A stretch of DNA of 64,000 nucleotides, taken from Heptranchias perlo. Taxonomy: Eukaryota. The DNA lies in contig NW_027139217.1 in assembly GCF_035084215.1 (NCBI RefSeq), positions 124,001-188,000 on the forward strand, read 5' to 3'. This document shows positions 11,888 through 35,124 of the stretch, in pieces. The position numbers were made by a program, and so were the translations under genes. Numbering within the stretch: position 1 is the stretch's first letter; the number at the start of each line of letters is the position of its first letter. Under the pieces are notes generated by a model. The model worked only from the letters and a program-made list of their open reading frames with translations. It was not told where the DNA came from and did no database searches.

Positions 11888-11934
11888 GCACAAACTGACT
11901 GTCGAAGCAAACAACATGGAGGTGACTGAGTGAG

Positions 11935-15620: not shown

Positions 15621-15669
15621 ATGATTGGACTGATAGTTCTGGTCGTTCTGTGTGGAGGGGTCTCTGCAG
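15621..15669 (+). CDS. MHC class I exon 1, signal peptide MIGLIVLVVLCGGVSA
   Basis: ATG 15621, hydrophobic core, CAG/GTGAGT donor, phase 1 matches exon 2. Confidence 0.9.
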
Positions 15670-18600
15670 GTGAGTAATGGGGTCTGAGAGGGGCTCAGTG
15701 CCAGGCTGGGTATTGGGGCATTAACCCTCGGTCAGTGGGTAATGGGGTCTGAGAGGGGCTCAGTGCCAGGCTGGGTATTGGGGCATTAACCCTCGGTCAG
15801 TGGGTAATGGGGTCTGAGAGGGGCTCAGTGCCAGGCTGGGTATTGGGACATTAACCCTCGGTCAGTGGGTAATGGGGTCTGAGAGGGGCTCAGTGCCAGG
15901 CTGGGTATTGGGGCATTAACCCTCGGTCAGTGGGTAATGGGGTCTGAGAGGGGCTCAGTGCCAGGCTGGGTATTGGGGCATTAACCCTCGGTCAGTGGGT
16001 AATGGGGTCTGAGAGGGGCTCAGTGCCAGGCTGGGTATTGGGGCATTAACCCTCGGTCAGTGAGTAATGGGGTCTGAGAGGGGCTCAGTGCCAGGCTGGG
16101 TATTGGGGCATTAACCCTCGGTCAGTGGGTAATGGGGTCTGAGAGGGGCTCAGTGCCAGGCTGGGTATTGGGGCATTAACCCTCGGTCAGTGGGTAATGG
16201 GGTCTGAGAGGGGCTCAGTGCCAGGCTGGGTATTGGGGCATTAACCCTCGGTCAGTGGGTAATGGGGTCTGAGAGGGGCTCAGTGCCAGGCTGGGTATTG
16301 GGGCATTAACCCTCGGTCAGTGGGAAATGGGGTCTGAGAGGGGCTCAGTGCCAGGCTGGGTATTGGAGAGAGAGAGACCATGATTGAAGGGGTGCTGGAA
16401 ACAGTGTGATAGAGGGAGAGACCATGGGGTGGAGTGAGGAATGGGGGGACACGGACACACGCAGCACAACTCCATTTTCCCCCTTTGCTCCATATCCCTT
16501 GATGTCCTGACCCAACAAAAATCGATCAATCTCAGTTTTGAAAGCTCCAACGAACCCCCAGAATGCTCAGCCTTTTGGGGGAGAGAGTTCCAGATTCCCA
16601 CCACCCTTTGTGTGAAGAAATGCTTCCTGGTTTCACCCCTGAACGGCCTGGCTCGAATTTGAAGATTCCGTCCTCTTGTTCTTGTCTCCCCGACTAGACG
16701 AAGTAGTTTCTCCGTATCTACCCTATCAAATCCTTTTAACATTTTAAACACCCTCGATCAGATCACCCCTCAATCTTCTAAACTCGAGGGAATACAAGCC
16801 TCGTCTGTACAACCTGTCCTCGTAATTTAACCCTTTTAGCCCCGGGATCATTCTGGTGAATCTGGGCTGCACCCCCTCCAAGGCCAATCTATCCTTCCTG
16901 AGGTGCGGTGCCCAGAACTGAACACGGTCTCCAGATGTGGTCTGACCAGAGCTCTGCACAGCTGGAACATAACTTCCTCCCCTTTGTATTCCAGCCCCCG
17001 AGATAAAGGCCAACGTTCCATTAGCCTTTCCCAATCCTTTTTGTATCTCTCCACTGGCTTTTAATGATTTCTGTACTTGGACTCCCAAATCTCTCTGTTC
17101 CTCTCCAGTTCCTAGTTTCTCACCGTGTAGAAAATACTCTGATTTATCTTTCTTCGGTCTAAAGTCGATGACCTCACACTTTCCCACATTGAACTCCATC
17201 TGCCACAGTTTTGCCCACTCACTTAATCTGTCTCTGTCCCTTCACAACTCCCTGCTCCCGTCTACACTATTTCCTGTCCCTCCTAATTTAGTGTCGTCAG
17301 CAAACCCAGGCCCCTCTCCCTCAGTCTGTCAGGGGGTGTGTTACCCCAGGCCCCTCTCCCTCAGTCTGTCAGTGGGTGTGTTACCCCAGGCCCCTCTCCC
17401 TCAGTCTGTCAGGGGGTGTGTTACCCAAGGCCCCTCTCCCTCAGTCCCTGTCAGGGGGTGTGTTACCCCAGGCCCCTCTCCCTCAGTCTGTCAGTGGGTG
17501 TGTTACCCCAGGCCCCTCTCCCTCAGTCTGTCAGGGGGTGTGTTACCCCAGGCCCTTCTCCCTCAGTCCCTCAGTGGGTGTGTTACCCCAGGCCCATCTC
17601 CCTCAGTCTGTCAGTGGGTGTGTTACCCCAGGCCCCTCTCCCTCAGTCCCTCAGTGGGTGTGTTACCCCAGGCCCCTCTCCCTCAGTCTGTCAGTGGGTG
17701 TGTTACCCCAGGCCCCTCTCCCTCAGTCTGTCAGGGGGTGTGTTACCCCAGGCCCCTCTCGCTCAGTCTGTCAGTGGGTGTGTTACCCCAGGCCCCTCTC
17801 CCTCAGTCTGTCAGTGGGTGTGTTACCCCAGGCCCCTCTCCCTCAGTCTGTCAGTGGGTGTGTTACCCCAGGTACCACTCCCTCAGTCTGTCAGGGGGTG
17901 TGTTACCCCCGGCCCCTCTCCCTCAGTCTGTCAGGGGGTGTGATACCCCAGGCCCCTCTCCCTCAGCCTGTGTTGTGTTGATGTGGAGATGCCGGTGATG
18001 GACTGGGGTTGACAATTGTAAACAATTTTACAACACCAAGTTATAGTCCAGCAATTTTATTTTAAATTCACAAGCTTTCGGAGACTTCCTCCTTCCTCAG
18101 GTAAATGTTCAGGGACTCTGTGTTGTGTTGGGGATTATTTACAGGGAGTCTGTGTTATTTTGTTGGTTCATGCCCTGATCTCTCTCTCTCTCTCTCTCTG
18201 GGGTTGGTGTTTTGGGGTTGGTGTTTTGGGGTTCATGCCCTGATCTCTCTCTCTCTGGGGTTGGTGTTTTGGGGTTCATGCCCTGATCTCTCTCTCTCTC
18301 TGGGGTTGGTGTTTTGGGGTTCATGCCCTGATCTCTCTCTCTCTCTGGTGTTGGTGTTTTGGGGTTCATGCCCTGATCTCTCTCTGGGGTTGGTGTTTTG
18401 GGGTTCATGCCCTGATCTCTCTCTCTGGGGTTGGTGTTTTGGGGTTCATGCCCTGATCTCTCTCTCTCTGGGGTTGGTGTTTTGGGGTTCATGCCCTGAT
18501 CTCTCTCTCTCTGGGGTTGGTGTTTTGGGGTTCATGCCCTGATCTCTCTCTCTCTGGGGTTGGTGTTTTGGGGTTCATGCCCTGATCTCTCTCTCTCTGG

Positions 18601-21600
18601 GGTTGGTGTTTTGGGGTTCATGCCCTGATCTCTCTCTCTCTGGGGTTGGTGTTTTGGGGTTCATGCCCTGATCTCTCTCTCTCTCTGGGGTTGGTGTTTT
18701 GGGGTTCATGCCCTGATCTCTCTCTCTCTGGGGTTGGTGTTTTGGGGTTCATGCCCTGATCTCTCTCTCTGGGGTTGGTGTTTTGGGGTTCATGCCCTGA
18801 TCTCTCTCTCTCTGGGGTTGGTGTTTTGGGGTTCATGCCCTGATCTCTCTCTCTGGGGTTGGTGTTTTGGGGTTCATGCCCTGATCTCTCTCTCTCTCTG
18901 GGGTTGGTGTTTTGGGGTTCATGCCCTGATCTCTCTCTCTCTCTGGGGTTGGTGTTTTGGGGTTCATGCCCTGATCTCTCTCTCTCTGGGGTTGGTGTTT
19001 TGGGGTTCATGCCCTGATCTCTCTCTCTCTGTGTTTCAGGCTCTCACTCTCTCCGGTATTTTCTGACCGCAATGACCCCGATCCCTGGTCTGCCGCAGTT
19101 TGTTGCTGTCGGGTATGTGGACGAGGCCCAGTTTGTGATGTACGACAGCGAGCGGAGGGAGTTGATCCCACGGCGGTCCTGGATGGAGGAGAGGGAGGGG
19201 CCCGAGAACTGGGAGCGGAAGAAACAGCTGGTGCGAGGCGAGGAACAGTGGATGAAGGATTATATTCAGATCCTCCTGACCCGGACCAACCAGTCGGTCG
19301 GTGAGTTCACTCCCTCCCAACGCACTCGGGCTCTTCCTGCGGAGTCAGGGGGCGGAGAGCGGGGTCAGGGAGCGGGGAGCGGGGAGCGGGGTCAGGGAGC
19401 GGGGTCAGGGAGCGGGGAGCGGGGTCAGGGAGCGGGGAGCGGGGTCAGGGAGCGGGGAGCGGGGTCAGGGAGCGGGGAGCGGGGTCAGGGAGCGTGTCGG
19501 GGAGCAGGGTCGGGGCGGGGAGCGGGGTCAGGGGTCGTGGTCGGGGAGCGGGGTCGGGGCGGGGTCAGGGGTCAGGGAGCTGGGGCGGGGAGATGGGTCG
19601 GGGAGTGGGGTCGGGGTGGGGAGCGGCGTCAGGGGGCGGGGAGTGGGGTCAGGGGGCATGGAGTGGGGTCAGGGAGTGAGGTCAGGGGCAGGGAGCGGGG
19701 TCAGGGAGCGGGGTCAGGGGGCGGGTAGTGGGTCAGGGAGCGAGGTCAGGGTGCAGGGAGCGAGGTCAGGGGGCAGGGAGCGGGGTCAGGGGGCGGGGAG
19801 TGGGGTCAGGGGGCATGGAGCGGGGTCAGGGAGCGAGGTCAGGGGGCAGGGAGCGGGGTCAGGGGGCAGGGAGCGGGGTCAGGGGGCGGGGCCAGGGGTT
19901 GACATGCGATATTCTGACGGTCATGGACTCGGACCAACCAGTCGGGCGGTGAGTCCTCGGCCTCAAACCGCACTCGGGCTGATCCCGGGGTCAGGAGTGG
20001 GCAGGGCTGCTCCCCCTGGAAGTGAGGAAGTTCCACCCCCTCCCCCACTGTGTGACATAAGAACATAAGAAATAGGAGCAGGAGTAGGCCATCCGGCCCC
20101 TCGAGCCTGCTCCGCCATTCATAGAATCATAGAATTATAGAATCGTAGAAAATTTATGGCACAGAAGGAGGCCATTCGACCCATCGTGTCCGTGCCGGCC
20201 AAAAATGTGCCACCCAGCCTAATCCCACTTTCCAGCACTTGGTCCGTAGCCCTGTAGGTTATGGCACTTCAGGAGCACATCCAGGTACTTTTTAAATGAG
20301 TTGAGGGTTTCTGCCTCTCCCACCCTCTCAGGCGGTGAGTTCCAGACCCCCACCACCCTCTGGGTGAAAAAAATTCACCTCAGCTCCCCTCTAATCCTTC
20401 TACCAATTACTTTAAATCCATGCCCCCTGGGCATTGACCTCTCTGCTAAGGGAAATAGGTCCTTGCCCCTCATAATTTTATACACCGGGGAACATAGGAA
20501 CATAGGAACAGGAGTAGGCCATTCAGCCCCTCGAGCCTGCTCCACCATTTGATAAGATCATGGCTGATCTGTGATCTCACTCCATATACCTGCCTTTGGC
20601 CCATATCCCTTAATACCTTTGGTTGCCAAAAAGCTATCCATCTCAGATTTAAAATTAGCAATTGAGCTAGTATCAATTGCCGTTTGCAGAAGAGAGTTCC
20701 AAACTTCTACCACCCTTTGTGTGTAGAAATGTTTTCTAATCTCACTCCTGAAAGGTCTGGCTCTAATTTTTAGACTGTGCCCCCTACTCCTAGAATCCCC
20801 AACCAGCGGAAATAGTTTCTCTCTATCCACCCTATCTGTTCCTTTTAATATCTTATAAACTTCGATCAGATCACCCCTTAACCTTCGAAACTCTAGAGAA
20901 TACAACCCCAATTTGTGTAATCTCTCCTCGTAACTTAACCCTTGAAGTCCGGGTATCATTCTAGTAAACCTACGCTGCACTCCCTCCAAGGCCAATATGT
21001 CCTTCCGAAGGTGCGGTGCCCAGAACTGCTCACAGTACCTCAATTAAATCTCCCCTCAGCCTCCTTTGTTCAAAAGAAAACAACCCCAGCCCATCCAATC
21101 TTTCCTCAGAGCTAAAATTCTCCAGTCCTGGCAACATCCTCGCAAATCTCCTCTGTACCCTCTCTAGTGCAATCACATCTTTCCTGTAATGTGGTGACCA
21201 GAACTGTACACAGTACTCAAGCTGTGGCCTAACCAATGTTTTATACAGTTCCAGCATAACCTCCCTGCACTTATATTCGATGCCTTGGCCTAATAAAGGA
21301 AAGTATTCCATCTGCCTTCTTAACCACCTTATCTGTCCTACTACCTCGGGGATCTGTGGACATGCACTCCAAGGTCCCTCTGTTCCTCGACACCTCTCAG
21401 TATCCTCCCATTTATTGTGTGCTCCCTTGCCTTGTTTGCCCTCCCCAAAGGCACTACCTCACACTTCTCTGGATTGAATTCCATTTGTCACTTTTCTGCC
21501 CACCTGACCAGTCCATTGATATCTTCCTGCAGTCTACAGCTTTCCTCCTCACTAGCAACCACACGGCCAATTTTTGTATCATCTGCAAACTTCTTAATCA

Positions 21601-24600
21601 TGGCCCTACATTTAAGTCCAAATCATTAATATATATCAAAAAAAGCAAGAGACCCAGTATTGAGCCTTGTGGAACCCCACTGGAAACAGCCTTCCAGTCA
21701 CAAAAACACCCGTCGACCATTTCCCTTTGCTTCCTGCCACTGAGCCAATTTTGGATACAATTTGCCACTTTCCCTTGGATCCCATGAGCTTGTACTTTTT
21801 TGACCAGTCTGCCATGTGGGACCTTGTCAAAAGCCTTGCTAAAATCCATGTATTCTACATCAAACGCACTACCCTCATCGACCCTCCTTGTTACCTCCTC
21901 AAAAAATTCAATCAAGTTGGTCAGACATGACCTTCCCTTAACAAATCCATGCTGACTGTCCTTGATTAACCCGTGCCTTTCTAAGTGACGGTTTATCCTG
22001 TCCCTCACAATTGATACCAATAATTTGCCCACCACTGAGGTTAGACTGACTGGCCTATAATTACTCGGTCTCTCTCTTTCTCCCTTTTTAAACAACAGTA
22101 GAACGTTAGCAGTCCTCCAATCCTCTGGCATCACGCCTGTATCCAGGGAGGATTGGAAAATGATGGTCAGAGCCTCCGCTATTTCCTCTCTTGCTTCTTT
22201 TAACAACCTGGGATACATTTCATCCGGGCCTGGTGATTTGTTTACTTTCAAAGATGCTAATCCCCTTAATATTTCCTCTCTCACTGTTTATCCCATCCAA
22301 TATTTCACACTCCTCCTCCTTAACTACAATCTCTGCATCGTCCCTCTCCTTTGTGAAGACAGACGCAAAGTATTCATTAAGAACCAAACCCACATCTTCC
22401 ACCTCCACACACAGGTTACCTTTTTGGTCTCAATCAGATCATGACTGATCTTCGACCTCAACTCCACTTTGCCGCCCGATCCCCATATCCCTTGTTTCCA
22501 TCCCAGCCTCGAATATATTCAATGACTGACCATCCACAGCTCTCTGGGGGAGAGAATTCCAAAGATTCACAGCCCTCTGAGTGAAGAAATTCCTCCTCAT
22601 CTCAGTCTTGAATGGCCGACCCTAAATCCTGCGACAATGCCCCCGAGTTCTAGACTCTCACAGGGGGAAACAATCTCTCAGCATCGACACTGTCAAACTC
22701 CCTCTACTCCCCACCCCCCCCGCAGCCCGTGTCTCTCTATTCCCCCTGTGTCTCTCTATTCCCCCCCGTGTCTCTCTATTCCCCCCCCGTGTCTCTCTAT
22801 TCCCCCCCCGTGTCTCTCTATTCCCCCCCCGTGTCTCTCTATTCCCCCCCCCCGTGTCTCTCTATTCCCCCCCCCGTGTCTCTCTGTTCCCCCCCGTGTC
22901 TCTCTGTTCCCCCCCGTGTCTCTCTATTCCCCCCGTGTCTCTCTATTCCCCCCCCGTGTCTCTCTATTCCCCCCCCCGTGTCTCTCTATTCCCCCCGTGT
23001 CTCTCTATTCCCCCCCGTGTCTCTCTATTCCCCCCCCGTGTCTCTCTATTCCCCCCCGTGTCTCTCTATTCCCCCCCCGTGTCTCTCTATTCCCCCCCCC
23101 CGTGTCTCTCTATTCCCCCCCCCGTGTCTCTCTATTCCCCCCCCCGTGTCTCTCTATTCCCCCCCCCGTGTCTCTCTATTCCCCCCCCCGTGTCTCTCTA
23201 TTCCCCCCGTGTCTCTCTATTCCCCCCCGTGTCTCTCTATTCCCCCCCCGTGTCTCTCTATTCCCCCCGTGTCTCTCTATTCCCCCCCCGTGTCTCTCTA
23301 TTCCCCCCCCGTGTCTCTCTATTCCCCCCGTGTCTCTCTATTCCCCCCCGTGTCTCTCTATTCCCCCCCCGTGTCTCTCTATTCCCCCCCGTGTCTCTCT
23401 ATTCCCCCCGTGTCTCTCTATTCCCCCCCCGTGTCTCTCTATTCCCCCCCCGTGTCTCTCTATTCCCCCCCCGTGTCTCTCTATTCCCCCCCCCGTGTCT
23501 CTCTATTCCCCCCCCCGTGTCTCTCTATTCCCCCCCCCGTGTCTCTCTATTCCCCCCCCCGTGTCTCTCTATTCCCCCCCCGTGTCTCTCTATTCCCCCC
23601 CCCGTGTCTCTCTATTTCCCCCCCCCCCCGTGTCTCTCTATTTCCCCCCCCCGTGTCTCTCTATTTCCCCCCCCCGTGTCTCTCTATTTCCCCCCCCCCC
23701 GTGTCTCTCTATTCCCCCCCCGTGTCTCTCTATTCCCCCCCCCCGTGTCTCTCTATTCCCCCCCCCGTGTCTCTCTATTCCCCCCCCTTGTCTCTCTATT
23801 CCCCCCCCGTGTCTCTCTATTTCCCCCCCCCCCCGTGTCTCTCTATTTCCCCCCCCCGTGTCTCTCTATTTCCCCCCCCCGTGTCTCTCTATTTCCCCCC
23901 CCCCCGTGTCTCTCTATTCCCCCCCCGTGTCTCTCTATTCCCCCCCCCCGTGTCTCTCTATTCCCCCCCCGTGTCTCTCTATTCCCCCCCGTGTCTCTCT
24001 ATTCCCCCCCCCCGTGTCTCTAATTCCCCCCCCGTGTCTCTCTATTCCCCCCCCGTGTCTCTCTATTCCCCCACCCCGTGAAGTTAAGAAACACTTCGAC
24101 ACTCAAAGGGTGGGAGAAGTTTGGAAACTCTCCTCCGCAAATGGCAGTTGGTGCGAGCTCAATTCGTAATTTTAAATCTGAGATTGATAGATTTTTGTTC
24201 ACCAAAGATATTAAGGGATGTGGGGCTAAGGCGGGGATATGGACTCAGGTCACAGATCAGCCATGATCTCATCGAATGGCGGAACAGGCTCGAGGGGCCA
24301 AATGGCCTCGTCCTGTTCCTTTGTTCCTGTAATAAAGTTTCAATACTCTACAGGGAGCGGGCTGGTTTAGTTGACAGGCAACAGCAAGGGCACTGGCGAA
24401 GTGGCAGGGATGGGACAGGAGTGCTGTCATCCTGAGAGTGGACACTCGGTTCATGTTCCATGGAGCCACTGCCACTTGTTGTCTCCTGTTATGCACCACC
24501 TTCTCCTGCAAGAAAGCGGGACGTGTGTCGGTGAGTGTCCTGCAAGATGTTTGGGTGATGAGCCTGTCATGGTTGAATAGCTAGTGCGTGTGGCCTGTGA

Positions 24601-27600
24601 GTTGTGGGTGGGCGGCTTGCAGCAGTGGTAATGTGTGAGGGTGAGAGGAAGCTTCTGATGGGAAGAGTTGAGTACTGCTGGAAAGAGTTTGTTGGTATGT
24701 GGGTGATGGGGGTGTCGTGTGTGGGGCAGTTGGTTGGAGACACCACTTGACAGTTGACCTCACTCACCTTGACCACTCATGTCAGAGCATTGAACTTCTT
24801 CCTGCACTGCGTCCATGTTCGTGATGCTGTGGGCCTGGCATTGACTTCGTCCCCCGCTGCCTTGGGAGCATATATCTGGAGGGCCTCTTGACCCCCCGCG
24901 GATATAGGATGTCCCTCCTTCTGTCCACCTCTTGCACCAAGGCCTCTCGTGCATCATCAGAGAACCTTGGTGCACGCACTCTCACAGGCCTGGTACCAAC
25001 TCAGATCGGCAGATTGGTGAGGTCTGACCTGCAGATTGGAGGATGTGGGATTTAGTAGTGTGCAACCTTTATTCAATGTTTTAACATAACTCAACAGTTT
25101 GTAAACATAGGGAGGGGACCTGTATCTGTGTTTTACGTGTGCGATGTCTGATCTCCGTTCAGACTCTGTCCGAACCCGTATCTTATATTTTGCAAATATC
25201 AGAGTCCCTCAAACGTTGAGCAGCCCAGTTGTTGCTCATTAAAAATTCCACAGTTCCCATCATCATCGTGTTTCACGATATTGCAGCACAGATTCACTTC
25301 ACCATTGACTTCCTCCACTTCCTGCAGACACACTGCACCTTCCCTTTAAGAGGTGCAGGCTGCCTTTAAGTGGTGCGAGCCACTCGTGATATCTGGGCCC
25401 CTGCTGGTGAGCAGCCACTCACAGTGCAGGGAGTGCTGGCTGGACGCAGCAATCAGGTAAATCACCAGGCAGCACGAATGTTACGTTCTTCCCACATCTC
25501 ACCGACCGGGCACGGGTTCATCACGACCCGTGGAAGTGGTTTTCTCGGGCGGACCGAAAACACACCTCTTACTATAAGTTCAGGAACGATCGGGACACTC
25601 GCTGGGAGCACGGGGGGTCCTTTAAATACACAGATTGTGGTCCAGGGGGTCCTTTAAATATATAGATTGAGGTTCGGGGGTCCTTTAAATACACTGATCG
25701 GGGTCCGGGGGTCCTTTAAATACACTGATCGGGGTCCGGTGGGGGGGGTCCTTAAATACCCAGGCCGGGGTCCGGGGGTCCTTGAAATACACTGATCGGG
25801 GTCCGGGGGGTCCTTTAAATACACTGATCGGGGTCCGGGGGATCCTTTAAATACACTGATCGGGGTCCGGGGGGTTCCTTTAAATACACTGATCGGGGTC
25901 CGGGGGGTCCTTTAAATACACAGATCGGGGTCCGGGGATCCTTTAAATACACAGATCGGGGTCCGGGGGTCCTTTAAATACACAGATCGGGGTCCGGGGG
26001 TCCTTTAAATACACTGATCGGGGTCCGGGGATCCTTTAAATACACTGATCGGGGTCCGGGGGGGGGTCCTTAAATACCCAGGCCGGGGTCCAGGGGTCCT
26101 TTAAATACACTGATCGGGCTCCAGGGATCCTTAAAATACACTGATCGGGGTCCGGGGGATCCTTTAAATACACTGATCGGGGTCCGGGGGGTCCTTTAAA
26201 TACACAGATCGTGGTCCGGGGGTACTTTAAATACACTGATCGGGGTCCGGGGGGTCCTTTAAATACACAGATCGTGGTCCGGGGGTCCTTTAAATACACT
26301 GATCGGGGTCCGGGGGGTCCTTTAAATACACTGATCGGGGTCCGGGGGTCGTTTAAATACACTGATCGGGGTCCGGGGTCCTTTAAATACACTGATCGGG
26401 GTCCGGGGGTCCTTTAAATATACTGATCGGGGTCCGGGGGGTCCTTTAAATACACTGATCGGGGTCCGGGGGTCGTTTAAATACACTGATCGGGGTCCGG
26501 GGGTCCTTTAAATACACTGATCGGGGTCCGGGGGGTCCTTTAAATATACTGATCGTGGTCCGGGGGGTCCTTTAAATACACTGATCGGGGTCCGGGGGTC
26601 CTTTAAATACACTGATCGGGGTCCGGGGGGTCCTTTAAATACACTGATCGGGGTCCGGGGGTCCTTTAAATACACTGATCGGGGTCCCGGGGTCCTTTAA
26701 ATACACTGATCGGGGTCCGGGGGTCCTTTAAATACACTGATCGGGGTCCGGGGATCCTTTAAATACACTGATCGGGGTCCGGGGGGTCCTTTAAATACAC
26801 TGATCAGGGTCCGGGGGTCCTTTAAATACACTGGTTGGGGTCCGGGGGTCCTTTAAATACACTGATCGGGGTCCGGGGGTCCTTTAAATACACTGGTTGG
26901 GGTCCGGGGGGTCCTTTAAATACACTGATTGTCTCCGTAACCCATCTGCCCACTTCCCCCCTCCCCCCACCCCCGGCTTCCCAGGTGATTTCCGACTGTG
27001 AGCTGGGTGGTGATGGGATGGTGGACGGGGTCTCGGACTGGGTCTGACTGACCCCCTGTGTTTGATTGACAGGAATCCACATGATCCAGCAGATGACCGG
27101 CTGTGATCTGGGGGATGATGGGATCACCAGTGGGTTCTTTCAGTACGCCTGGGACGGGGAGGATTTCATCAACTTCGACAGGGATCAGATGGTGTGGGTA
27201 ACACCGGTACAGTGGGGAGAGATCACCAAGAACAAGTGGGACCAGGACACGCCCCGGAACCAAGGGGTGAAGGGATACCTGGAGGGGGAGTGCATCGAGT
27301 GGCTGAGGAAATACCTGGAGTACGGAGAGAGGGAACTGAGGGCCGGTGAGTGAGGGGGGAGTGAGAGTCGGTGAGTGAGGGGGGACTGAGAGTCGGTGAG
27401 TGAGGGGGGGAGTGAGAGTCAGTGAATGAGGGGGGACTGAGAGTCGGTGAGTGAAGGGGGGGACTGAGAGTCGGTGAGTGAGGGGGGAGTGAGAGTCGGT
27501 GAGTGAGGGGAGGAGTGAGAGTCGGTGAGTGAGGGGAGGAGTGAGAGTCGGGGAGTGAGGGGAGGAGTGAGAGTCAGTGAATGAGGGGGGACTGAGAGTT

Positions 27601-30600
27601 GGTGAGTGAAGGGGGGACTGAGAGTCGGTGGGTGAGGGGGGGAGTGAGAGTCAGTGAATGAGGGGGGACTGAGAGTCGGTGAGTGAAGGGGGGGACTGAG
27701 AGTCGGTGAGTGAGGGGGGAGTGAGAGTCGGTGAGTGAGGGGACGAGTGAGAGTCGGTGAGTGGGGGGGGGGAGTGAGAGTCGGTGAGTGAGGGGGGGAG
27801 TGAGAGTCGGTGAGTGATGGGACGAGTGAGAGTCGGTGAGTGAGGGGAGGAGTGAGAGTCGGTGAGTGAGGGGAGGAGTGAGAGTCGGGGAGTGAGGGGA
27901 GGAGTGAGAGTCGGTGAGTGAGGGGGGGAGTGAGAGTCGGTGAGTGAGGGGAGGAGTGAGAGTCGGGGAGTGAGGGGAGGAGTGAGAGTCGGTGAGTGAG
28001 GGGGGGGAGTGAGAGTCGGGGAGTGAGGGAGGGGACAGAGTCGGTGAGTGAGGGGGGAGTGAGAGTCGGTGAGTGATGGGACGAGTGAGAGTCGGGGAGT
28101 GAAGGGAGGAGTGAGAGTCGGTGAGTGAAGGGGGGGACTGAGAGTCGGTGAGTGATGGGACGAGTGAGAGTCGGTGAGTGAGGGGAGGAGTGAGAGTCGG
28201 TGAGTGAGGGGAGGAGTGAGAGTCGGGGAGTGAGGGGAGGAGTGAGAGTCGGTGAGTGAGGGGGGGAGTGAGTCGGTGAGTGAGGGGAGGAGTGAGAGTC
28301 GGGGAGTGAGGGGAGGAGTGAGAGTCGGTGAGTGAGGGGGGGGAGTGAGAGTCGGGGAGTGAGGGGGGAGTGAGAGTCGGTGAGTGATGGGACGAGTGAG
28401 AGTCGGTGAGTGAGGGGAGGAGTGAGAGTCGGTGAGTGAGGGGAGGAGTGAGAGTCGGGGAGTGAGGGGAGGAGTGAGAGTCGGTGAGTGAGGGGGGGAG
28501 TGAGAGTCGGTGAGTGAGGGGAGGAGTGAGAGTCGGGGAGTGAGGGGAGGAGTGAGAGTCGGTGAGTGAGGGGGGGAGTGAGAGTCGGGGAGTGAGGGAG
28601 GGGACTGAGAGTCGGTGAGTGAGGGGGGAGTGAGAGTCGGTGAGTGAGGGGGGGAATGGGGTCTAATCCCCAGTTTAAAGGGGTTTGTCCCGTTCCCTGG
28701 GGTCTAATCCCCAGTTTAAAGGGGTTTGTCCCGTTCCCTGGGGTCTAATCCCCAGTTTAAAGGGGTTTGTCCCGTTCCCTGGGGTCTAATCCCCAGTTTA
28801 AAGGGGTTTGCACCGTTCCCTGTCTCACACTGACTCGGCTCTGATCTGTTTTACTCTCAGTTACTCCCCAAGTGTTTCTTTCTGTGGACAAGGCCTCAGA
28901 CACTAAACCGGCCCAACTCTCCTGCCTGGTCACGGGGTTTTACCCTCGAGATATCGAACTCACCCTCCTGAGAAATGGACGGCCGATCTCAGACACTGAT
29001 TCCACTGGCATCCTGCCCAACCACGATGGCACCTACCAGATCAAGAGATGGGTTGAGATCGGGCCCGAGGACGGAGCCACCTACTCCTGTCAGGTGGATC
29101 ACAGCAGCAAAGCAGGAGTGGAGACCCGAGACTGGGGTAAGAGGATCAGTGAGTGCAGGGGGAGAGTCTGAGGCTGAGGATTAAAGATGTTTCTATTGCC
29201 TCTCCTCATTCTTCCTTCCAAAATACATCACTTCACACTTCTCTGTGTTAAATTTCATCTGCCATGTGTCTGCCCATTTCACCAGTCTGTCTGTGTCCTC
29301 CTGAACTCTGTTACTATCCTCCACATTGTTTACTACATTTCCGAGTTTCATGTCAGCTGCAAACTTTGAAATTATACCCTCTATACCTGTGACGGGGAAA
29401 TTTTATTCAGAAATACAAGAGATTTCCAAACCTGCCTGTCTATAATGAGCAGCACCATATATCTGGGTTACACTGAGTTATTGACTGGCTGGGATCTGTG
29501 TGTCAGGTGAAGGAGGCCGTTAGTCCATTGAACTCCTCAACCTTCCATAGAAAGGCCGTATCACCCATCACTGTACTTCCACCAGCCGACTCTGAGACTG
29601 TGCTGGGGATTCATCACTTGTGGAGGGGACTAGTAATGACTTTGGACTGATGGGTAATTCCAATATCTGCAGACAAGCAACAACTTGTATTTATAAAGTG
29701 CCTTTAATGGAGAGAAACGTCCCAAAGTGCTTCCCAGGAGTGGAATCAAAGCCACGCTGAACTTTCTAACCTCCAACTTGCTCTGATCAGACTGCCCATC
29801 ACATCGCAGACTCGAATCGAACTCAGTCTCAGGCACAGCTTTGGTCTCATTACTTCCTAATCAGCAGCGACTGTCGTTATTCATTTCTCTCCTCCTCCTT
29901 ATTCCCCCCACAGATGGGACGTTCCGAGTGACTCCGGGATCTTCAGAGGGACCGAATCTGGGTTTAATTGTTGGAATTGTTCTTGCTGCCGTCGTCCTGA
30001 TTGCTCTCGTCATTGGTGCCGTTGTCTGGAAGAAGAGAGGTAGGAAATGAGGACAGGATCTGTCCCACACGGGGATGAGCAGGTTCAAATGTTACAGCAC
30101 AAATGGCAGAACATTAGAGACTTCCCATCGACATGTGGGAAACTCCGACACAGTCCAGTGATGGACAGGGACCCGTACAGGGAGTGAAGGGACCGGGGCC
30201 CCGTACGGGGAGTGAAGGGACCGGGGCCCCGTACGGGGAGTGAAGGGACCGGGGCCCCGTACGGGGAGTGAAGGGACCGGGGCCCCGTACGGGGAGTGAA
30301 GGGACCGGGGCCCCGTACGGGGAGTGAAGGGACCGGGGCCCCGTACGGGGAGTGAAGGGACCGGGGCCCCGTACGGGGAGTGAAGGGACCGGGGCCCCGT
30401 ACGGGGAGTGAAGGGACCGGGGCCCCGTACGGGGAGTGAAGGGACCGGGGCCCCGTACGGGGAGTGAAGGGACCGGGGCCCCGTACGGGGAGTGAAGGGA
30501 CTGGGCCTGATTGGGGAGTGAAGGGACCGGGTGAAGAGAGGATATTGTCCGATGCCTGTTTCTCAGTGAGCCTCCTGTGAGTGCCCACAGGGAAATCTGG

Positions 30601-30736
30601 TCATTGCCCCTGTTTCTGGAGTAAGTTTGTGTCGGCGAGGGGCTGTGCTGATCGAGGAGCTGTTTGTAACTGAAGTTCCGTCTGTTTCTGTCTCTTGTAG
30701 GAGGAGAGAAAAAATCTGGTTACAGCCCAGCAAATC
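15621..30736 (+). CDS. MHC class I alpha chain, cartilaginous-fish UAA-like; 6 exons visible, 3' end outside window: join(15621..15669,19040..19300,27073..27345,28861..29136,29914..30039,30701..30736)
   Basis: All GT-AG phase-1 introns; 1021 nt spliced open frame; GSHSLRYF start, NQS glycosylation site at 86, C101-C164, Ig C1 alpha3, TM, GYSPA tail motif. Confidence 0.95.
15670..16365. repeat. 65-bp minisatellite starting exactly at the intron 1 donor, about 10.7 copies
   Basis: Units start at 15670, 15735, 15800 and so on; GTGAGT in copies 1 and 7 (16060), GTGGG in the others. Confidence 0.95.
16465..17304 (-). mobile_element. CR1 ORF2 3' fragment in intron 1
   Basis: FADD remnant, MEFNVGKCEV, QFWAPHLRKD, FFTQRVVGIWNSLP, with frameshifts. 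Confidence 0.9.
17305..17968. repeat. 40-bp minisatellite (CCCAGGCCCCTCTCCCTCAGTCTGTCAGTGGGTGTGTTAC), about 16 copies
   Basis: Direct reading. Confidence 0.95.
17979..18107 (-). mobile_element. Penelope-like element terminal fragment
   Basis: GATGTGGAGATGCCGG..GGACTGGGG..ACAACACCAAG..AGTCCA..AGCTTTCGGAG..CCTTCCTCAGG layout plus the hammerhead motif typical of Penelope terminal repeats. Confidence 0.6.
18066..18106 (-). ncRNA. Minimal type I hammerhead ribozyme-like motif
   Basis: Minus strand AUUUAC-CUGAGGA-A-GGAG(GAAGU)CUCC-GAAA-GC-UU-GUGAAU: stem I 6 bp, stem II 4 bp, palindromic AGCU in place of stem III. Confidence 0.6.
18165..19030. repeat. ~41-bp minisatellite GGGGTTGGTGTTTTGGGGTTCATGCCCTGAT(CT)n, about 21 copies, ending at the exon 2 acceptor
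   Basis: The last unit runs directly into GTGTTTCAG/exon 2. Confidence 0.95.
19040..19300 (+). CDS. MHC class I exon 2, alpha1 domain
   Basis: GSHSLRYFLTAMTPIPGLPQFVAVGYVDEAQFVMYDSERRELIPRRSWMEEREGPENWERKKQLVRGEEQWMKDYIQILLTRTNQSV; 261 nt. Confidence 0.97.
19345..19893. repeat. G-rich degenerate repeat (GGGAGCGGGGTCA-type)
   Basis: Direct reading; dense GGGG runs. Confidence 0.9.
19908..20008 (+). pseudogene. Relic 3' end of a second alpha1 exon plus the start of its intron 2
   Basis: GAT ATT CTG ACG GTC ATG (G) ACT CGG ACC AAC CAG TCG GGC G/GTGAGT, then CGCACTCGGGCT as found after the real exon 2. Confidence 0.85.
20054..22705 (-). mobile_element. Three nested CR1 insertions: A (20054-20120 and 22431-22705) contains B (20121-20487 and 21037-22430), which contains C (20489-21036)
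   Basis: Three separate CR1 tails (ACATAAGA, ATCATAGA, ACATAGGA types); the interrupted halves join into continuous CR1 sequence; RT ORF 21598-22284. Confidence 0.82.
22727..24075. repeat. C-rich ~21-bp minisatellite GTGTCTCTCTATT(C)6-11, about 60 copies
   Basis: Direct reading. Confidence 0.96.
24078..24330 (+). mobile_element. CR1 3' end fragment
   Basis: EVKKHF.TQRV.EVW..NFKSEIDRFL, 3'UTR ending CCTGTTCCTTTGTTCC. Confidence 0.85.
24380..24990 (-). mobile_element. Relic Myb/SANT-like gene of a PIF/Harbinger DNA transposon (two exons)
   Basis: RAPRFSDDAREALVQEVDRRRDILYP..EVNA..RTWTQCRKKFNAL..VVK/GTGAGT, then TTGCAG/EKVVHNRRQ; frameshift and stop present; element ends not identified. Confidence 0.7.
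25611..26929. repeat. ~31-bp minisatellite GGGGTCCGGGGGTCCTTTAAATACACTGATC, about 40 copies
   Basis: Direct reading; ends ~140 nt upstream of exon 3. Confidence 0.95.
27073..27345 (+). CDS. MHC class I exon 3, alpha2 domain
   Basis: GIHMIQQMTGCD..YAWDGEDFI..ITKNKW..YLEGECIEWLRKYLEYG; 273 nt; ACAG acceptor and GTGAGT donor. Confidence 0.97.
27346..28654. repeat. ~25-bp minisatellite GTGAGTGAGGGGGGAGTGAGAGTCG starting at the intron 3 donor, about 50 copies
   Basis: Most units recreate CG/GTGAGT. Confidence 0.95.
28658..28821. repeat. 41-bp repeat, 4 copies, just upstream of the exon 4 acceptor
   Basis: GGGGTCTAATCCCCAGTTTAAAGGGGTTTGTCCCGTTCCCT. Confidence 0.95.
28861..29136 (+). CDS. MHC class I exon 4, alpha3 Ig C1 domain
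   Basis: VTPQVF..LSCLVTGFYPRDI..ILPNHDGTYQ..YSCQVDHSS..W; 276 nt. Confidence 0.97.
29205..29390 (-). mobile_element. Small CR1 RT fragment in intron 4
   Basis: Minus strand ISKFAAD..WADTWQMKFNTEKCEVM. Confidence 0.75.
29675..29745 (-). mobile_element. Probable L2/SINE 3' tail fragment
   Basis: CAACAACTTGTATTTATAAAGTGCCTTT..AAACGTCCCAAAGTGCTT is the reverse complement of a typical L2-type terminus; recognised from memory. Confidence 0.45.
29914..30039 (+). CDS. MHC class I exon 5, connecting peptide and transmembrane segment
   Basis: DGTFRVTPGSSEGPNLGLIVGIVLAAVVLIALVIGAVVWKKR; pyrimidine tract with CAG acceptor, GTAGGA donor. Confidence 0.93.
30172..30530. repeat. 28-bp palindrome-rich minisatellite CCGTACGGGGAGTGAAGGGACCGGGGCC, about 12 copies
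   Basis: Direct reading. Confidence 0.95.
30701..30736 (+). CDS. MHC class I exon 6, cytoplasmic GGEKKSGYSPAN
   Basis: TCTCTTGTAG acceptor, GTAAGT donor, 36 nt, phase 1, YxxA motif as in class I tails. Confidence 0.88.
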
Positions 30737-30759
30737 GTAAGTGTGCAAATAGTGCAAGG

Positions 30760-33700
30760 GTGGGTGTGTCTGTGGGTGTCTCTGTCTGTCTGTGTGTGTC
30801 TCTGTCTGTGTGCGTCTCTGTGTGTGTCTCTCTGTGCATCTTTATCGATGTGTGTGTGTGTGTCCCTCTCTCTCTCTCTCTGAGTGTGTGTCTCTCTCTG
30901 TGTGTCTCTCTCTCTCTCTCTGAGTGTGTGTCTCTTTGTGCCTCTCTCTCTCTTTGTGCCCCTCTCTCTCTGCGTGCGCCTCTCTTTCTCTCTGTGTGCC
31001 TCTCTCTCTCTCTGCGTGCGCCTCTCTTTCTCTCTGTGTGCGCCTCTCTTTCTCTCTGTGTGTGTCTCTCTCTCTCTCTGAGTGTGTGTCTCTTTGTGCC
31101 TCTCTCTCTCTTTGTGCCCCTCTCTCTCTGCGTGCGCCTCTCTTTCTCTCTGTGTGCCTCTCTCTCTCTCTGCGTGCGCCTCTCTTTCTCTCTGTGTGCG
31201 CCTCTCTTTCTCTCTGTGTGTGTCTCTCTCTCTCTCTGAGTGTGTGTCTCTTTGTGCCTCTCTCTCTCTTTGTGCCCCTCTCTCTCTGCGTGCGCCTCTC
31301 TTTCTCTCTGCGTGCGCCTCTCTCTCTCTCTCTGTGTGCGCCTCTCTCTCTCTCTGTGTCCGCCTCTCTTTCTCTCTGTGTGTGCCTCTCTTTCTCTCTG
31401 TGTGCGCCTCTCTTTCTCTCTGTGTGCGCCTCTCTCTCTCTCTGTGTCCGCCTCTCTTTCTCTCTGTGTGTGCCTCTCTTTCTCTCTGCGTGCGCCTCTC
31501 TTTCTCTCTGTGTGCGCCTCTCTTTCTCTCTGTGTGCGCCTCTCTCTCTCTCTCTGTGTCCGCCTCTCTCTCTCTCTGTGTCCGCCTCTCTTTCTCTCTG
31601 TGTGTGCCTCTCTTTCTCTCTGTGTGTGCCTCTCTCTCTCTTTGTGCCCCTCTCTCTCTGCGTGCGCCTCTCTCTCTCTCTGCGTGCCCCTCTCTCTCTG
31701 CGTGCGCCTCTCTCTCTCTCTGCGTGCGCCTCTCTCTCTCTCTGCGTGCGCCTCTCTCTCTCTCTGTGTGCGCCTCTCTCTGTGTGTGCGCCTCTCTTTC
31801 TCTCTGTGTGCGCCTCTCTCTCTCTCTGTGTGCGCCTCTCTCTCTCTCTGTGTGCGCCTCTCTCTCTCTCTGTGTGCGCCTCTCTCTCTCTCTGTGTGCG
31901 CCTCTCTCTCTGTGTGCGCCTCTCTCTCCCTCTGCGTGCGCCTCTCTCTCTCTCTGTATGCGCCTCTCTCTCTCTCTCTGTGTGCGCCTCTCTTTCTCTC
32001 TGTGTGCGCCTCTCTTTCTCTCTGTGTGCGCCTCTCTCTCTCTCTGTGTGCGCCTCTCTTTCTCTCTGTGTGCGCCTCTCTTTCTCTCTGTGTGCCCCTC
32101 TCTTTCTCTCTGTGTGCCCCTCTCTCTCTGTGTGCGCCTCTCTCTCTCTCTGTGTGCGCCTCTCTTTCTCTGTGTGCGCCTCTCTTTCCCTCTGTGTGCG
32201 CCTCTCTCTCTCTTTGTGCCCCTCTCTTTCCCTCTGTGTGCGCCTCTCTCTCTCTGCGTGCGCCTCTTTCTCTGTGTGCGCCTCTCTCTCTCTGTGTGCG
32301 CCTCTCTTTCCCTCTGTGTGCGCCTCTCTCTCTCTTTGTGCCCCTCTCTTTCCCTCTGTGTGCGCCTCTCTCTCTCTGCGTGCGCCTCTTTCTCTGTGTG
32401 CGCCTCTCTCTCTCTGCGTGCGCCTCTCTTTCCCTCTGTGTGCGCCTCTCTCTCTCTCTGCGTGCGCCTCTCTCTCTCTCTGTGTGCGCCTCTCTTTCTC
32501 TCTGTGTGCGCCTCTCTTTCTCTCTGCGTGCGCCTCTCTCTCTCTCTGTGTGCGCCTCTCTCTCTCTCTGTGTGCGCCTCTCTCTCTCTCTGTGTGCGCC
32601 TCTCTCTCTCTCTCTGTGTGCGCCTCTCTCTCTCTCTGTGTGCGCCTCTCTTTCTCTCTGTGTGCGCCTCTCTCTCTCTCTGTGTGCGCCTCTCTCTCTC
32701 TCTGTGTGCGCCTCTCTCTCTCTCTGCGTGCGCCTCTCTTTCTCTCTGCGTGCGCCTCTCTCTCTCTCTCTGCGTGCGCCTCTCTCTCTGCGTGCGCCTC
32801 TCTTTCTCTCTGTGTGCGCCTCTCTCTCTCTCTGCGTGCGCCTCTCTCTCTCTCTGCGCGCGCCTCTCTTTCTCTCTGTGTGCGCCTCTCTTTCTCTCTG
32901 TGTGCGCCTCTCTCTCGCTCTGCGCGCGCCTCTCTTTCTCTCTGTGTGCGCCTCTCTCTCTCTCTGCGCGCGCCTCTCTTTCTCTCTGTGTGCGCCTCTC
33001 TCTCTCTCTGTGTGCGCCTCTCTTTCTCTCTGCGTGCGCCTCTCTCTCTCTCTGCGTGCGCCTTTCTTTCTCTCTGTGTGCGCCTCTCTCTCTCTCTGCG
33101 TGCGCCTCTCTTTCTCTCTGCGTGCGCCTCTCTCTTTCTCTCTGCGTGCGCCTCTCTCTCTCTCTGCGTGCGCCTCTCTCTTTCTCTCTGTGTGCGCCTC
33201 TCTCTCTCTCTGCGTGCGCCTCTCTTTCTCTCTGCGTGCGCCTCTCTCTCTCTCTGTGTGCGCCTCTCTCTCTCTGCGCGCGCCTTTCTTTCTCTCTGTG
33301 TGTGCCTCTCTTTCTCTCTGTGTGCGCCTCTCTCTCTCTCTGCGTGCGCCTCTCTCTCTCTGTGTGCGCCTCTCTTTCTCTCTGCGCGCGCCTCTCTTTC
33401 TCTCTGCGTGCGCCTCTCTTTGTCTCTGCGTGCGCCTCTCTTTGTCTCTGTGTGCCCCTCTCTCTCTCTGTGCGCCTCTCTTTCTCTGCGTGCGCCTCTC
33501 TCTCTCTGTGTGCGCCTCTCTCTCTCTCTGTGTGCGCCTCTCTTTCTCTCTGCTTGTGCCTCTCTCTCTCTGTGTGCGCCTCTCTCTCTGTGTGCGCCTC
33601 TCTCTCTCTGCGTGTGCGTCTCTCTCTCTCTGTGTGCGCCTCTCTTTCTCTCTGTGTGCGCCTCTCTTTCTCTCTGTGTGCGCCTCTCTTTCCCTCTGTG

Positions 33701-35124
33701 TGCGCCTCTCTTTCTCTGCGTGCGCCTCTCTTTCTCTGCGTGCGCCTCTCTTTCTCTGCGTGCGCCTCTCTCTCTGTGTGCGCCTCTCTCTCCCTCTGCG
33801 TGCGCCTCTCTCTCTCTCTGTGTGCGCCTCTCTCTCTCTCTGTGTGCGCCTCTCTCTCTCTCTGTGTGCGCCTCTCTTTCTCTCTGTGTGCGCCTCTCTC
33901 TCTCTCTGTGTGCGCCTCTCTCTCTCTCTGTGTGCGCCTCTCTTTCTCTCTGTGTGTGCCTCTCTTTCTCTCTGTGTGTGCCTCTCTTTCTCTCTGTGTG
34001 CGCCTCTCTCTCTCTGCGTGCGCCTCTCTCTCTCTCTGTGTGCGCCTCTCTCTCTCTCTGCGTGCGCCTCTCTCTCTCTCTGTGTGCGTCTCTCTCTCTC
34101 TGTGTGCGCCTCTCTTTCCCTCTATGTGCGCCTCTCTCTCTCTTTGTGCCCCTCTCTTTCCCTCTGTGTGCGCCTCTCTCTCTCTGCGTGCGCCTCACTC
34201 TCTCTGTGTGCGCCTCTCTTTCCCTCTGTGTGCGCCTCTCTCTCTCTGCGTGCGCCTCTCTCTCTCTCTGTGTGCGCCTCTCTCTCTCTGTGTGCGCCTC
34301 TCTTTCTCTCTGCGTGCGCCTCTCTTTCTCTCTGCGTGCGCCTCTCTTTCTCTCTGCGTGCGCCTCTCTCTCTCTCTGTGTGCGCCTCTCTTTCTCTCTG
34401 CGTGCGCCTCTCTTTCTCTCTGCGTGCGCCTCTCTTTCTCTCTGCGCGCGCCTCTCTTTCTCTCTGTGTGCGCCTCTCCTTGTCTCTGTGTGCGCCTCTC
34501 TCTCTCTGCGTGCGCCTCTCTCTCTCTCTGTGTGCGCCTCTCTTTCTCTCTGTGTGCGCCTCTCTCTCTCTGCGTGCGCCTCTCTCTCTCTCTGTGTGCG
34601 CCTCTCTTTCTCTCTGTGTGCGCCTCTCTTTCCCTCTGTGTGCGCCTCTCTTTCTCTGCGTGCGCCTCTCTCTCTCTCTGCGCGCGCCGCTCTCTCTCTC
34701 TGCGCGCGCCTCTCTCTCTCTCTGCGCGCGCCTCTCTCTCTCTCTGCGCGCGCCTCTCTTTCTCTCTGCGTGCGCCTCTCTTTCTCTCTGCGTGCGCCTC
34801 TCTTTCTCTCTGCGTGCGCCTCTCTTTCTCTCTGCGTGCGCCTCTCTTTCTCTCTGCGTGCGCCTCTCTTTCTCTCTGCGTGCGCCTCTCTGTCTCTCTG
34901 CGTGCGCCTCTCTTTCTCTCTGCGTGCGCCTCTCTCTTTCTCTCTGCGTGCGCCTCTCTTTCTCTCTGCGTGCGCCTCTCTCTCTCTCTGCGTGCGCCTC
35001 TCTTTCTCTCTGCGTGCGCCTCTCTTTCTCTCTGCGTGCGCCTCTCTCTTTCTCTCTGCGTGCGCCTCTCTTTCTCTCTGCGTGCGCCTCTCTTTCTGCA
35101 TGCGCCTCTCTTTCTCTCTGCGTT
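30760..35124. repeat. ~20-24-bp satellite (CT)n-GYGTGCGC, block 1
   Basis: Grades from TG/TC microsatellite into a regular unit. Confidence 0.97.

What the first reader, a model, noticed from the sequence alone, without database searches (positions are those of the whole stretch)
15670..30760. Intron ends amplified into minisatellites built from splice signals
Seen: distinct arrays begin exactly at donors (65-bp unit at 15670, 25-bp unit at 27346), start within ~25-135 nt of donors (19345, 30172, 30760), or end at or near acceptors (18165-19030, 25611-26929, 28658-28821). Their units contain GTGAGT or branch-like CTGAT/CTAAT motifs. The exons stay intact and open. Inference: a local process that expands exon-adjacent sequence, tolerated or selected. 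Gene-specific arrays could insulate exons from, or promote, inter-locus conversion. It may also simply reflect the repeat-rich GC-rich chromosomes of sharks.
Basis: partly seen in the sequence, partly recalled or inferred. Interest (0 to 1): 0.72.

Follow-up and report, generated by a model that had tools for sequence, protein, structure and literature searches.

The report
Exon-hugging minisatellites in shark MHC gene
Half of the intron DNA of this shark MHC class I gene is tandem repeats, likely grown on the spot and often abutting the exons, and one repeat copies a splice donor 35 extra times while assembled transcripts show only the first in use; it likely reflects the neutral intron 'stuttering' described in birds, not an immune-specific device.

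Summary
The arrays are real, in an open shark MHC class I gene; introns 1-5 are 52% tandem repeat and 6 of 11 splice sites have an array within 40 nt. 'Built from splice signals' is overstated. Only two arrays are: the intron-3 26-mer copies the exon's last 9 nt plus donor (35 extra donors, all behind an in-frame TGA), and the intron-1 43-mer repeats a branch-like motif and pyrimidine tract without AG. Two mid-intron arrays and the flanking arrays were omitted. Edge enrichment is strong under a naive null (p about 1e-4) and weakens once transposon-derived intron interiors are removed. Probable RNA contigs join exon 3 to exon 4 at the first donor. Closest known: human F7-type donor VNTRs, and avian dot-chromosome 'sequence stuttering', whose authors did not find it outside birds and gerbils; their strict exon-copy screen is not met here. 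This scan noted donor arrays before in non-MHC shark and chimaera genes (unchecked), which argues against MHC specificity. No evidence ties the arrays to gene conversion. Verdict: new member of a known kind, with modest interest as a candidate shark case of stuttering.

The parts
11932..15555 (+). 43-bp minisatellite x84 ending 65 nt before the start codon (outside the finding)
   Evidence: TRF; a horn shark model P0011 carries a translated tandem repeat ending at the same position
15621..15669 (+). Exon 1, leader peptide
   Evidence: 17 of 17 residues match P0006
15670..16366 (+). 65-bp minisatellite x10.7 starting exactly at donor 1; GTGAGT in 2 of 11 copies, exon end not copied
16467..17240 (-). 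LINE/SINE-like dispersed repeat pieces in the middle of intron 1
   Evidence: blastn to other copies in the window
17305..17971 (+). 40-bp minisatellite x16.6, mid-intron 1, no splice motif
18165..19031 (+). 43-bp minisatellite x20; each unit has CTGAT plus a (CT)n tract and no AG; last copy gives the likely branch site (-23); 889-nt AG-free zone; ends 8 nt before acceptor
19040..19300 (+). Exon 2, alpha-1 domain
   Evidence: exon 2-exon 3 join in contigs
19339..19897 (+). Degenerate G-rich repeat (13/20/33-bp periods, 78% GC, 18 G4-pattern matches), 38 nt after donor 2
19909..20007 (+). Single diverged copy of the exon 2 end, donor 2 and first 60 nt of intron 2 (spare donor at 19949)
   Evidence: score 93.5 against a maximum of 34 in 200 shuffles; blastn 55 nt, 84%, E 3.6e-11
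20061..22653 (-). LINE/SINE-like dispersed repeat pieces in intron 2
   Evidence: 69% over 1135 nt to the RT-bearing LINE at 35130-38830; RVT_1
22726..24072 (+). 21-bp minisatellite x63, mid-intron 2, also AG-free, no splice motif
25613..26929 (+). 31-bp minisatellite x42 with CTGAT; ends 143 nt before acceptor 3; probably not the branch site used
26981..27019 (+). Weak copy of a 5' part of exon 3 (29 of 39 nt) behind a pyrimidine tract and CAG
   Evidence: score 46 against a maximum of 30 in 200 shuffles; 24.3 bits, so weak
27073..27345 (+). Exon 3, alpha-2 domain
27337..28655 (+). 25-27-bp minisatellite x51 whose first unit is the last 9 nt of exon 3 plus donor 3; 35 extra G|GTGAGT sites; in-frame TGA at 27351-27353 precedes all of them
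   Evidence: first donor used in contigs
28657..28822 (+). 41-bp repeat x4 with CTAAT; ends 38 nt before acceptor 4
28861..29136 (+). Exon 4, alpha-3 domain
   Evidence: 91 of 91 residues identical to P0006 and P0007
29914..30039 (+). Exon 5, transmembrane
30168..30531 (+). 28-bp minisatellite x13 in intron 5 (intron about 325 nt when collapsed), no splice motif
30701..30736 (+). Exon 6, cytoplasmic
30760..64000 (+). GT/CT microsatellite 23 nt after donor 6, grading into a 22-bp satellite that runs to the window end, interrupted by two near-identical 3.8-kb LINE copies

Best explanation
These arrays are likely selectively neutral minisatellites that grew in place from the gene's own intron and exon-border sequence, and they likely survive only where splicing still finds the original sites. 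Steps: (1) a short local stretch is duplicated head to tail and amplified, likely by slippage and unequal exchange in a GC-rich, repeat-prone region (local origin shown for the 26-mer; molecular route inferred). (2) Exons would act as walls because expansions into them are purged (inferred). (3) Closeness to exons is partly geometry: introns 3 and 5 collapse to about 106 and 325 nt, and transposon pieces fill the middles of introns 1 and 2 (shown); a residue of exact abutment (0, -9 and 8 nt) suggests that duplications are also seeded at exon borders (inferred). (4) The donor array is tolerated because the first donor is used (seen in contigs; scanning or exon definition as in human F7 inferred), and any later donor would bring in a stop codon (shown in sequence; decay of such RNA inferred). 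(5) The acceptor-side 43-mer is likely tolerated because it has no AG, so any of its 20 branch-like sites would lead to the same first AG (inferred).
For: Units of ten arrays share nothing beyond short or low-complexity matches in 45 pairwise comparisons (8 pairs at p<0.05 uncorrected). First unit of the 26-mer is the exon 3 junction; 34 of its 35 spare donors read TCG|GTGAGT, the same 9-mer as this gene's real intron-2 donor. Probable RNA runs X5 (4 contigs) and X6 (2 contigs) leave the stretch at 27345 and continue with the first 26 nt of exon 4; summed depth falls from about 70,000 in the last exon bin to 15 and 9 in the next bin. Named models P0006 and P0007 have the same alpha-2/alpha-3 junction without insertion. 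Arrays also lie mid-intron and in both flanks. Short shark chromosomes are richer in simple tandem repeats (PMC10620051). The same picture (intron-confined local arrays, intact exons, occasional copies of exon ends with splice sites) is described for chicken dot chromosomes (PMC12954441); chromosome 16 is one of them and carries the chicken MHC (recalled).
Against: Proximity stays above chance on the mean-log measure after all corrections (p 0.002-0.009), so geometry alone is not enough. The published exon-stuttering screen finds nothing over its thresholds here (best 16 nt, 32.2 bits; shuffles reach 34.2). Unlike avian dot euchromatin these introns hold many interspersed repeats, and coding GC is moderate (56%, GC3 68%). 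Length polymorphism was not tested. A tandem repeat ends at the same upstream position in a horn shark model, which could mean persistence or constraint, not pure turnover. RNA evidence is one sample, guessed as RNA, contigs only, pooled over paralogues, with 22 loose-end rows not shown; X7 shows depth 150 past the donor and no listed join at 27345. AG-freeness is not special to the acceptor: the mid-intron 21-mer is AG-free too.
Confidence: 0.75

Rival explanations
1. Pure geometry: the region is so repeat-rich and the ancestral introns so short that arrays land near exons by chance; there is no border-seeded process.
For: Window 60% tandem repeat; after removing dispersed repeats the 150-nt test is not significant (p 0.13-0.36) and the 50-nt test for all 9 arrays gives p 0.08-0.14; 5 of 9 intron 1-5 arrays carry no splice motif in most units.
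Against: Three arrays abut at 0, -9 and 8 nt; mean-log p 0.002-0.009 in every corrected null; a separate single copy of the exon 2 end exists.
Confidence: 0.12
2. The arrays are kept by selection because they shape exchange between class I loci: as hotspots that set breakpoints around the alpha-1 and alpha-2 exons, or as locus-specific barriers.
For: Alpha-2 groups by species (window plus three Heptranchias proteins, 98/99) while alpha-3 groups by an old lineage shared with horn shark (100/100), and alpha-1 of P0006 groups with P0008, which has the other alpha-3 type: mosaicism with breaks in introns 2 and 3. A recombination event inside the primate DRB intron-2 microsatellite is on record (PMC4629986).
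Against: Arrays also flank the leader, transmembrane and cytoplasmic exons and fill the flanks; donor arrays were noted in non-MHC chondrichthyan genes (unchecked); mosaic trees rest on predicted models of about 90 residues per domain and need no arrays; no breakpoint was mapped.
Confidence: 0.07
3. The donor array is a regulatory device: copy number tunes the share of transcripts spliced at later donors, which are degraded or give a short secreted alpha-1/alpha-2 product.
For: 35 spare donors of functional sequence, all behind a TGA; in human 6-16 and CBS the nearest spare donors are used (PMC1557585 introduction); repeats can modulate splicing (PMC10078293 abstract).
Against: No listed contig leaves the stretch at the second or third donor into exon 4; depth past the first donor is about 1/5000 of the exon in X5 and X6. 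Contigs would hide rare or degraded forms.
Confidence: 0.04
4. The arrays are assembly artefacts.
For: Long near-perfect arrays and a 99.95% identical 3.8-kb duplicate downstream can be inflated in assembly.
Against: Units carry structured variants; in DNA run X1 the unit words are hundreds of times deeper than exon 3 (about 8,000-8,900 against 14; possibly the source sample).
Confidence: 0.02

Closest known systems
Avian dot-chromosome 'sequence stuttering' (Hron et al. 2026, PMC12954441; read: abstract, introduction, results section 7, first part of section 8, discussion, screen methods; supplements not read)
   Same: Several unrelated local arrays per gene, units of tens of bases, confined to introns, exons intact, some units copying an exon end with its splice site; flanks affected too.
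   Different: Shark, not bird (authors report it only in birds and in gerbil GC-rich genes); strict exon-copy screen not met; introns here also hold LINE pieces; GC moderate; length variation unknown.
Donor-spanning VNTRs: human F7 intron 7 (37 bp, 5-9 copies), also 6-16, CBS, lamin B2, PDGF (Borensztajn et al. 2006, PMC1557585; read: abstract, introduction, discussion)
   Same: First unit spans the exon-intron boundary; donor reiterated downstream; the first site is the one seen in use.
   Different: About 51 units and 35 intact spare donors; spare donors differ from the real one at -3; all lie behind a stop codon; applies to one of nine arrays only.
Tandem-repeat-filled introns of GC-rich 'hidden' bird genes (PMC6792250, passages; bioRxiv 10.1101/2025.10.17.683159, passages: tandem repeats over 70% of dot-chromosome introns)
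   Same: Introns largely made of minisatellites, some G4-prone.
   Different: Only 3 of 10 arrays here have three or more G4-pattern matches on the sense strand.
Primate MHC-DRB intron-2 (GT)x(GA)y microsatellite (PMC4629986, passages)
   Same: Repeat next to a peptide-binding exon in an MHC gene, with a suggested role in recombination.
   Different: One conserved dinucleotide repeat, not many unrelated minisatellites; role speculative there too.

Membership tests
Donor-spanning VNTR (F7 type), for the intron-3 26-mer | First unit spans the exon-intron boundary | tested here: met
   Array starts at 27337, 9 nt inside exon 3
Donor-spanning VNTR (F7 type), for the intron-3 26-mer | Donor sequence reiterated in downstream units | tested here: met
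   35 extra G|GTGAGT sites
Donor-spanning VNTR (F7 type), for the intron-3 26-mer | Most upstream donor used | tested here: met
   Join at 27345 to exon 4 in 2 of 3 probable RNA runs; contigs only, one sample, rare forms invisible
Donor-spanning VNTR (F7 type), for the intron-3 26-mer | Variable copy number among individuals | not testable with these tools
   No genome held; all strong holders are one sample
Donor-spanning VNTR (F7 type), for the intron-1 65-mer | Exon end and intact donor in the unit | tested here: not met
   Unit starts at +1; 9 of 11 copies lack GTGAGT and none has the exon's -1 G
Sequence stuttering (Hron et al. 2026) | Introns filled with locally derived, intron-confined repeat clusters; coding sequence intact | tested here: met
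   Cover 66, 41, 97, 0, 55, 99% for introns 1-6 (intron 6 counted to 35130); unrelated units; open frame
Sequence stuttering (Hron et al. 2026) | Extensive intraspecies intron length variation | not testable with these tools
   Needs long reads of several individuals
Exon stuttering by the authors' screen | Exon copy of at least 20 nt and 42.1 bits in the adjacent intron | tested here: not met
   Best hits 16 nt / 32.2 bits and 24 nt / 24.3 bits; shuffled maximum 34.2. Shorter or older copies exist
Sequence stuttering (Hron et al. 2026) | Dot-type context: very small GC-rich chromosome, depleted of interspersed repeats | tested here: inconclusive
   Chromosome unknown; interspersed repeats are present; coding GC 56%, GC3 68%
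MHC class I heavy chain | Leader, alpha-1, alpha-2, C1-set alpha-3, transmembrane exons in phase 1 | tested here: met
Shark class Ib lineage UBA (multicopy, derived from UAA; PMC10751288, PMC12562908 passages) | Orthology to named UBA sequences and position in the UBA cluster | tested here: inconclusive
   Classical-like alpha-1/2 with a distinct old alpha-3 lineage, many expressed variants in one sample; no hit carried a lineage name, so UBA is a guess

The most novel reading that the evidence does not exclude
Sequence stuttering is not a bird speciality but an old property of the small GC-rich chromosomes of jawed vertebrates, the MHC chromosome included, and in sharks the arrays it leaves around the alpha-1 and alpha-2 exons set the breakpoints for exon exchange between class I loci, producing the domain mosaics seen here. 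The first half alone (stuttering active in sharks) I put near 0.45; the probability given is for both halves.
Probability: 0.08. Interest if true: 0.75.

Novelty: new member of a known kind. Interest (0 to 1): 0.4.

Why it matters
The paper that named sequence stuttering found it only in birds and gerbil GC-rich genes and called for similar loci elsewhere. A shark gene with the same look, on the region whose chicken counterpart is a dot chromosome (MHC location recalled), is a direct place to test whether the instability is ancient. The intron-3 array (35 spare donors) and the intron-1 array (20 branch-like sites, 889 nt without AG) are natural tests of splice-site choice in a non-mammal. Practically, such arrays explain why shark MHC genes are hard to assemble and amplify, and could serve as locus markers. 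It does not, on present evidence, reveal a new immune mechanism.

Tried and rejected
Genome-wide or paralogue-level test: not possible, no genome is held. Names of cluster members of the closest proteins could not be looked up. Published exon-stuttering screen: negative at its thresholds. AG-freeness as a sign of selection: rejected as proof, since the unit has only two A and the mid-intron 21-mer and the 22-mer are AG-free or nearly so. CTRAY in 3 of 3 acceptor-side arrays against 1 of 11 others looks suggestive, but two of the three are too far from the AG and have better sites outside the array. Intron 2 stretch 24329-25612 as a transposon: only a weak Myb/SANT-like hit (E 0.033, below cut-off), so its removal is a sensitivity test only. 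Translations of intron arrays in fetched shark proteins: none found except the upstream match in P0011/P0031. No run was on record as RNA; runs X5-X8 are guessed RNA; 4 of 13 listed runs were laid. High unit depth in X1 might mean related units at other loci but is no copy number, so not used. No contig start at the spare acceptor 26985 among listed rows: absence in contigs is not evidence. Literature searches that gave no report of such arrays or of stuttering in sharks: (open-licence library only; the Almeida lineage papers and older shark MHC gene papers were not read and may describe intron repeats; supplements of PMC12954441 not read). PMC13100897 (passages) gave nothing relevant. Earlier-finding look-ups were blank.


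Full report
The gene. The window holds a + strand MHC class I heavy-chain gene with exons at 15621-15669, 19040-19300, 27073-27345, 28861-29136, 29914-30039 and 30701-30736; all introns are GT-AG and phase 1, and the 340 codons have no stop (Pfam MHC_I and C1-set). The alpha-3 domain is identical (91 of 91) to two proteins named Heptranchias perlo, P0006 and P0007, while alpha-1 and alpha-2 are 65-83% identical, so the window likely comes from that shark or a close relative and from a multi-copy family. The last exon expected from P0006 is not in the window. The lineage could not be named; a UBA-like class Ib gene is a guess.

The observation. Tandem Repeats Finder finds every array named. Of 11 splice sites, 6 have an array within 40 nt and 9 within 170 nt; the two of intron 4 have none within 1 kb. 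Introns 1-5 are 52% tandem repeat, but so is the neighbourhood: 35% upstream (16% without the 43-mer before the start codon), 78% after exon 6. Two mid-intron arrays were left out of the finding. The claim that units are built from splice signals holds for two arrays. The intron-3 unit is the last 9 nt of exon 3, the donor and about ten more bases; it yields 35 extra G|GTGAGT sites, 34 of them with the same 9-mer as the real intron-2 donor, and all behind an in-frame TGA at 27351. The intron-1 43-mer has CTGAT and a (CT)n tract but no AG; its last copy puts the branch-like A at -23, and no AG occurs for 889 nt before the acceptor. The 65-mer starts exactly at donor 1 but 9 of 11 copies have lost GTGAGT. 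The 31-mer and 41-mer contain CTRAY but stop 143 and 38 nt short, with better-placed motifs outside them. The G-rich and 28-bp arrays have no such motif. There is also one diverged 100-nt copy of the exon 2 end and donor at 19909-20007 and a weak copy of part of exon 3 at 26981-27019.

More than chance? I collapsed each of the nine arrays in introns 1-5 to one unit and placed units at random. Introns 3 and 5 shrink to 106 and 325 nt and say little. In introns 1-2, 3 of 6 arrays lie within 50 nt against 0.31 expected (p 0.002). The middles of these introns are largely LINE/SINE pieces; with those removed the expectation is 0.81 (p 0.03), the 150-nt test fails (p 0.13), and with a further suspected transposon removed the 50-nt test is p 0.07. 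The mean-log distance, driven by the exact abutments, stays at p 0.002-0.009. So the edge bias is probably real but partly geometric; this is one gene and the test is post hoc.

Splicing. Thirteen runs hold part of 26930-27345; none is on record as RNA, four of one sample are guessed RNA, and the two best hold 0.67 of the words, the exon's share of the stretch. Laying X1, X5, X6 and X7 on 26930-27410: X5 (4 contigs) and X6 (2) leave at 27345 and continue with the first 26 nt of exon 4 (checked); all three probable RNA runs join an exon 2 end to 27073, X7 matching this exon 2 exactly and X5/X6 differing at 2 of 30 letters, none resembling the upstream part of the spare copy. Summed depth drops from about 70,000 to 15 and 9 past the donor in X5 and X6; X7 drops from 4,900 to 150 and has no listed join at 27345. 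No listed loose end goes from the second or third donor to exon 4. Limits: contigs drop rare forms, paralogues are pooled, later donors lay outside the stretch, 22 loose-end rows and 895 pieces were not shown, one sample.

Mechanism. Most likely each array began as a short local duplication and grew by slippage and unequal exchange in a repeat-prone region (inferred; units are unrelated to one another). Exons limit the spread, and arrays persist when splicing is unharmed: the first donor wins, later donors would add a stop, and the acceptor-side array lacks AG. This predicts that donor-side arrays may include the exon end while acceptor-side arrays stop short of the AG, as seen here (0 and -9 against 8, 38, 143), though earlier scan notes of acceptor-copying arrays in other animals (unchecked) show that this is no rule.

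The conversion idea. Domain trees (proteins over 500 residues and poorly aligned domains left out, 22-24 rows each) put alpha-2 of the window with three Heptranchias proteins (98/99) whatever their alpha-3 type, and alpha-3 in an old clade with horn shark proteins (100/100). That is the pattern of exon exchange among loci, but it rests on short domains and predicted models, and nothing ties breakpoints to arrays. Arrays also flank non-variable exons. Earlier notes of this scan report donor arrays in shark GIPC1 and EMILIN1 and chimaera MRPS18C and DCTN1 (not checked by me), which points away from MHC specificity.

Known kinds. The intron-3 array is a member of the donor-spanning VNTRs known from human F7, 6-16, CBS, lamin B2 and PDGF (PMC1557585), polymorphism untested. 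The gene as a whole works like sequence stuttering on chicken dot chromosomes (PMC12954441): local intron-confined arrays, intact exons, over 90% of copied exon pieces at the exon border. [quoted passage not shown] I do not file it there as exon stuttering: their screen is not met, length variation is untested and interspersed repeats are abundant. [quoted passage not shown] Searches found no report of such arrays in shark MHC genes, in an open-licence library only.

One lead outside the finding: horn shark models P0011 and P0031, of the same alpha-3 lineage, begin with a translated 17-residue tandem repeat that ends where the window's upstream 43-mer ends, followed by a matching stretch to the leader (30 of 43 residues, E 3e-16). 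An array thus seems to sit at the same place in two shark orders, with a different unit length; DNA comparison is needed.

Verdict. Observation partly confirmed, interpretation partly supported. New member of a known kind; interest 0.4, mostly as a candidate non-avian case of stuttering and a natural splice-choice test.

Noticed in passing
window 11932-15555 and proteins P0011, P0031: An 84-copy 43-bp array ends 65 nt before the start codon, with CCAAT-like motifs upstream of it near 11770-11890 (read by eye), so it may lie between promoter and coding start. Horn shark models of the same lineage show a tandem repeat (17 residues, about 51 nt) ending at the same position.
   Followed up: partly
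window 35100-38900 and 55656-59448: Two copies of a 3.8-kb LINE (esterase-type ORF1, RT) are 99.95% identical, share a 23-bp internal duplication and sit about 20.5 kb apart in the 22-bp satellite: a recent large tandem duplication or an assembly duplicate.
   Followed up: partly
window 30737-64000: Intron 6 would exceed 33 kb, mostly one 22-bp satellite with almost no A on the sense strand; the last exon is not in the window.
   Followed up: partly
proteins P0006, P0007, P0008 and the window gene: Alpha-1, alpha-2 and alpha-3 trees disagree, suggesting exon exchange between class I loci that carry different alpha-3 lineages.
   Followed up: partly
window 7400-10650: Looks by eye like a decayed Gypsy-type retrotransposon with a 21-bp GC-rich array (8560-8843) inside it; not tested.
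   Followed up: no
window 24780-25000, minus strand: Broken Myb/SANT-like frame (Pfam Myb_DNA-bind_5, E 0.033, below cut-off), perhaps a Harbinger-type transposon relic.
   Followed up: partly
window 4983-6129: AT-rich 19-bp array x60 with near-palindromic units, unlike the GC-rich arrays in the gene.
   Followed up: no
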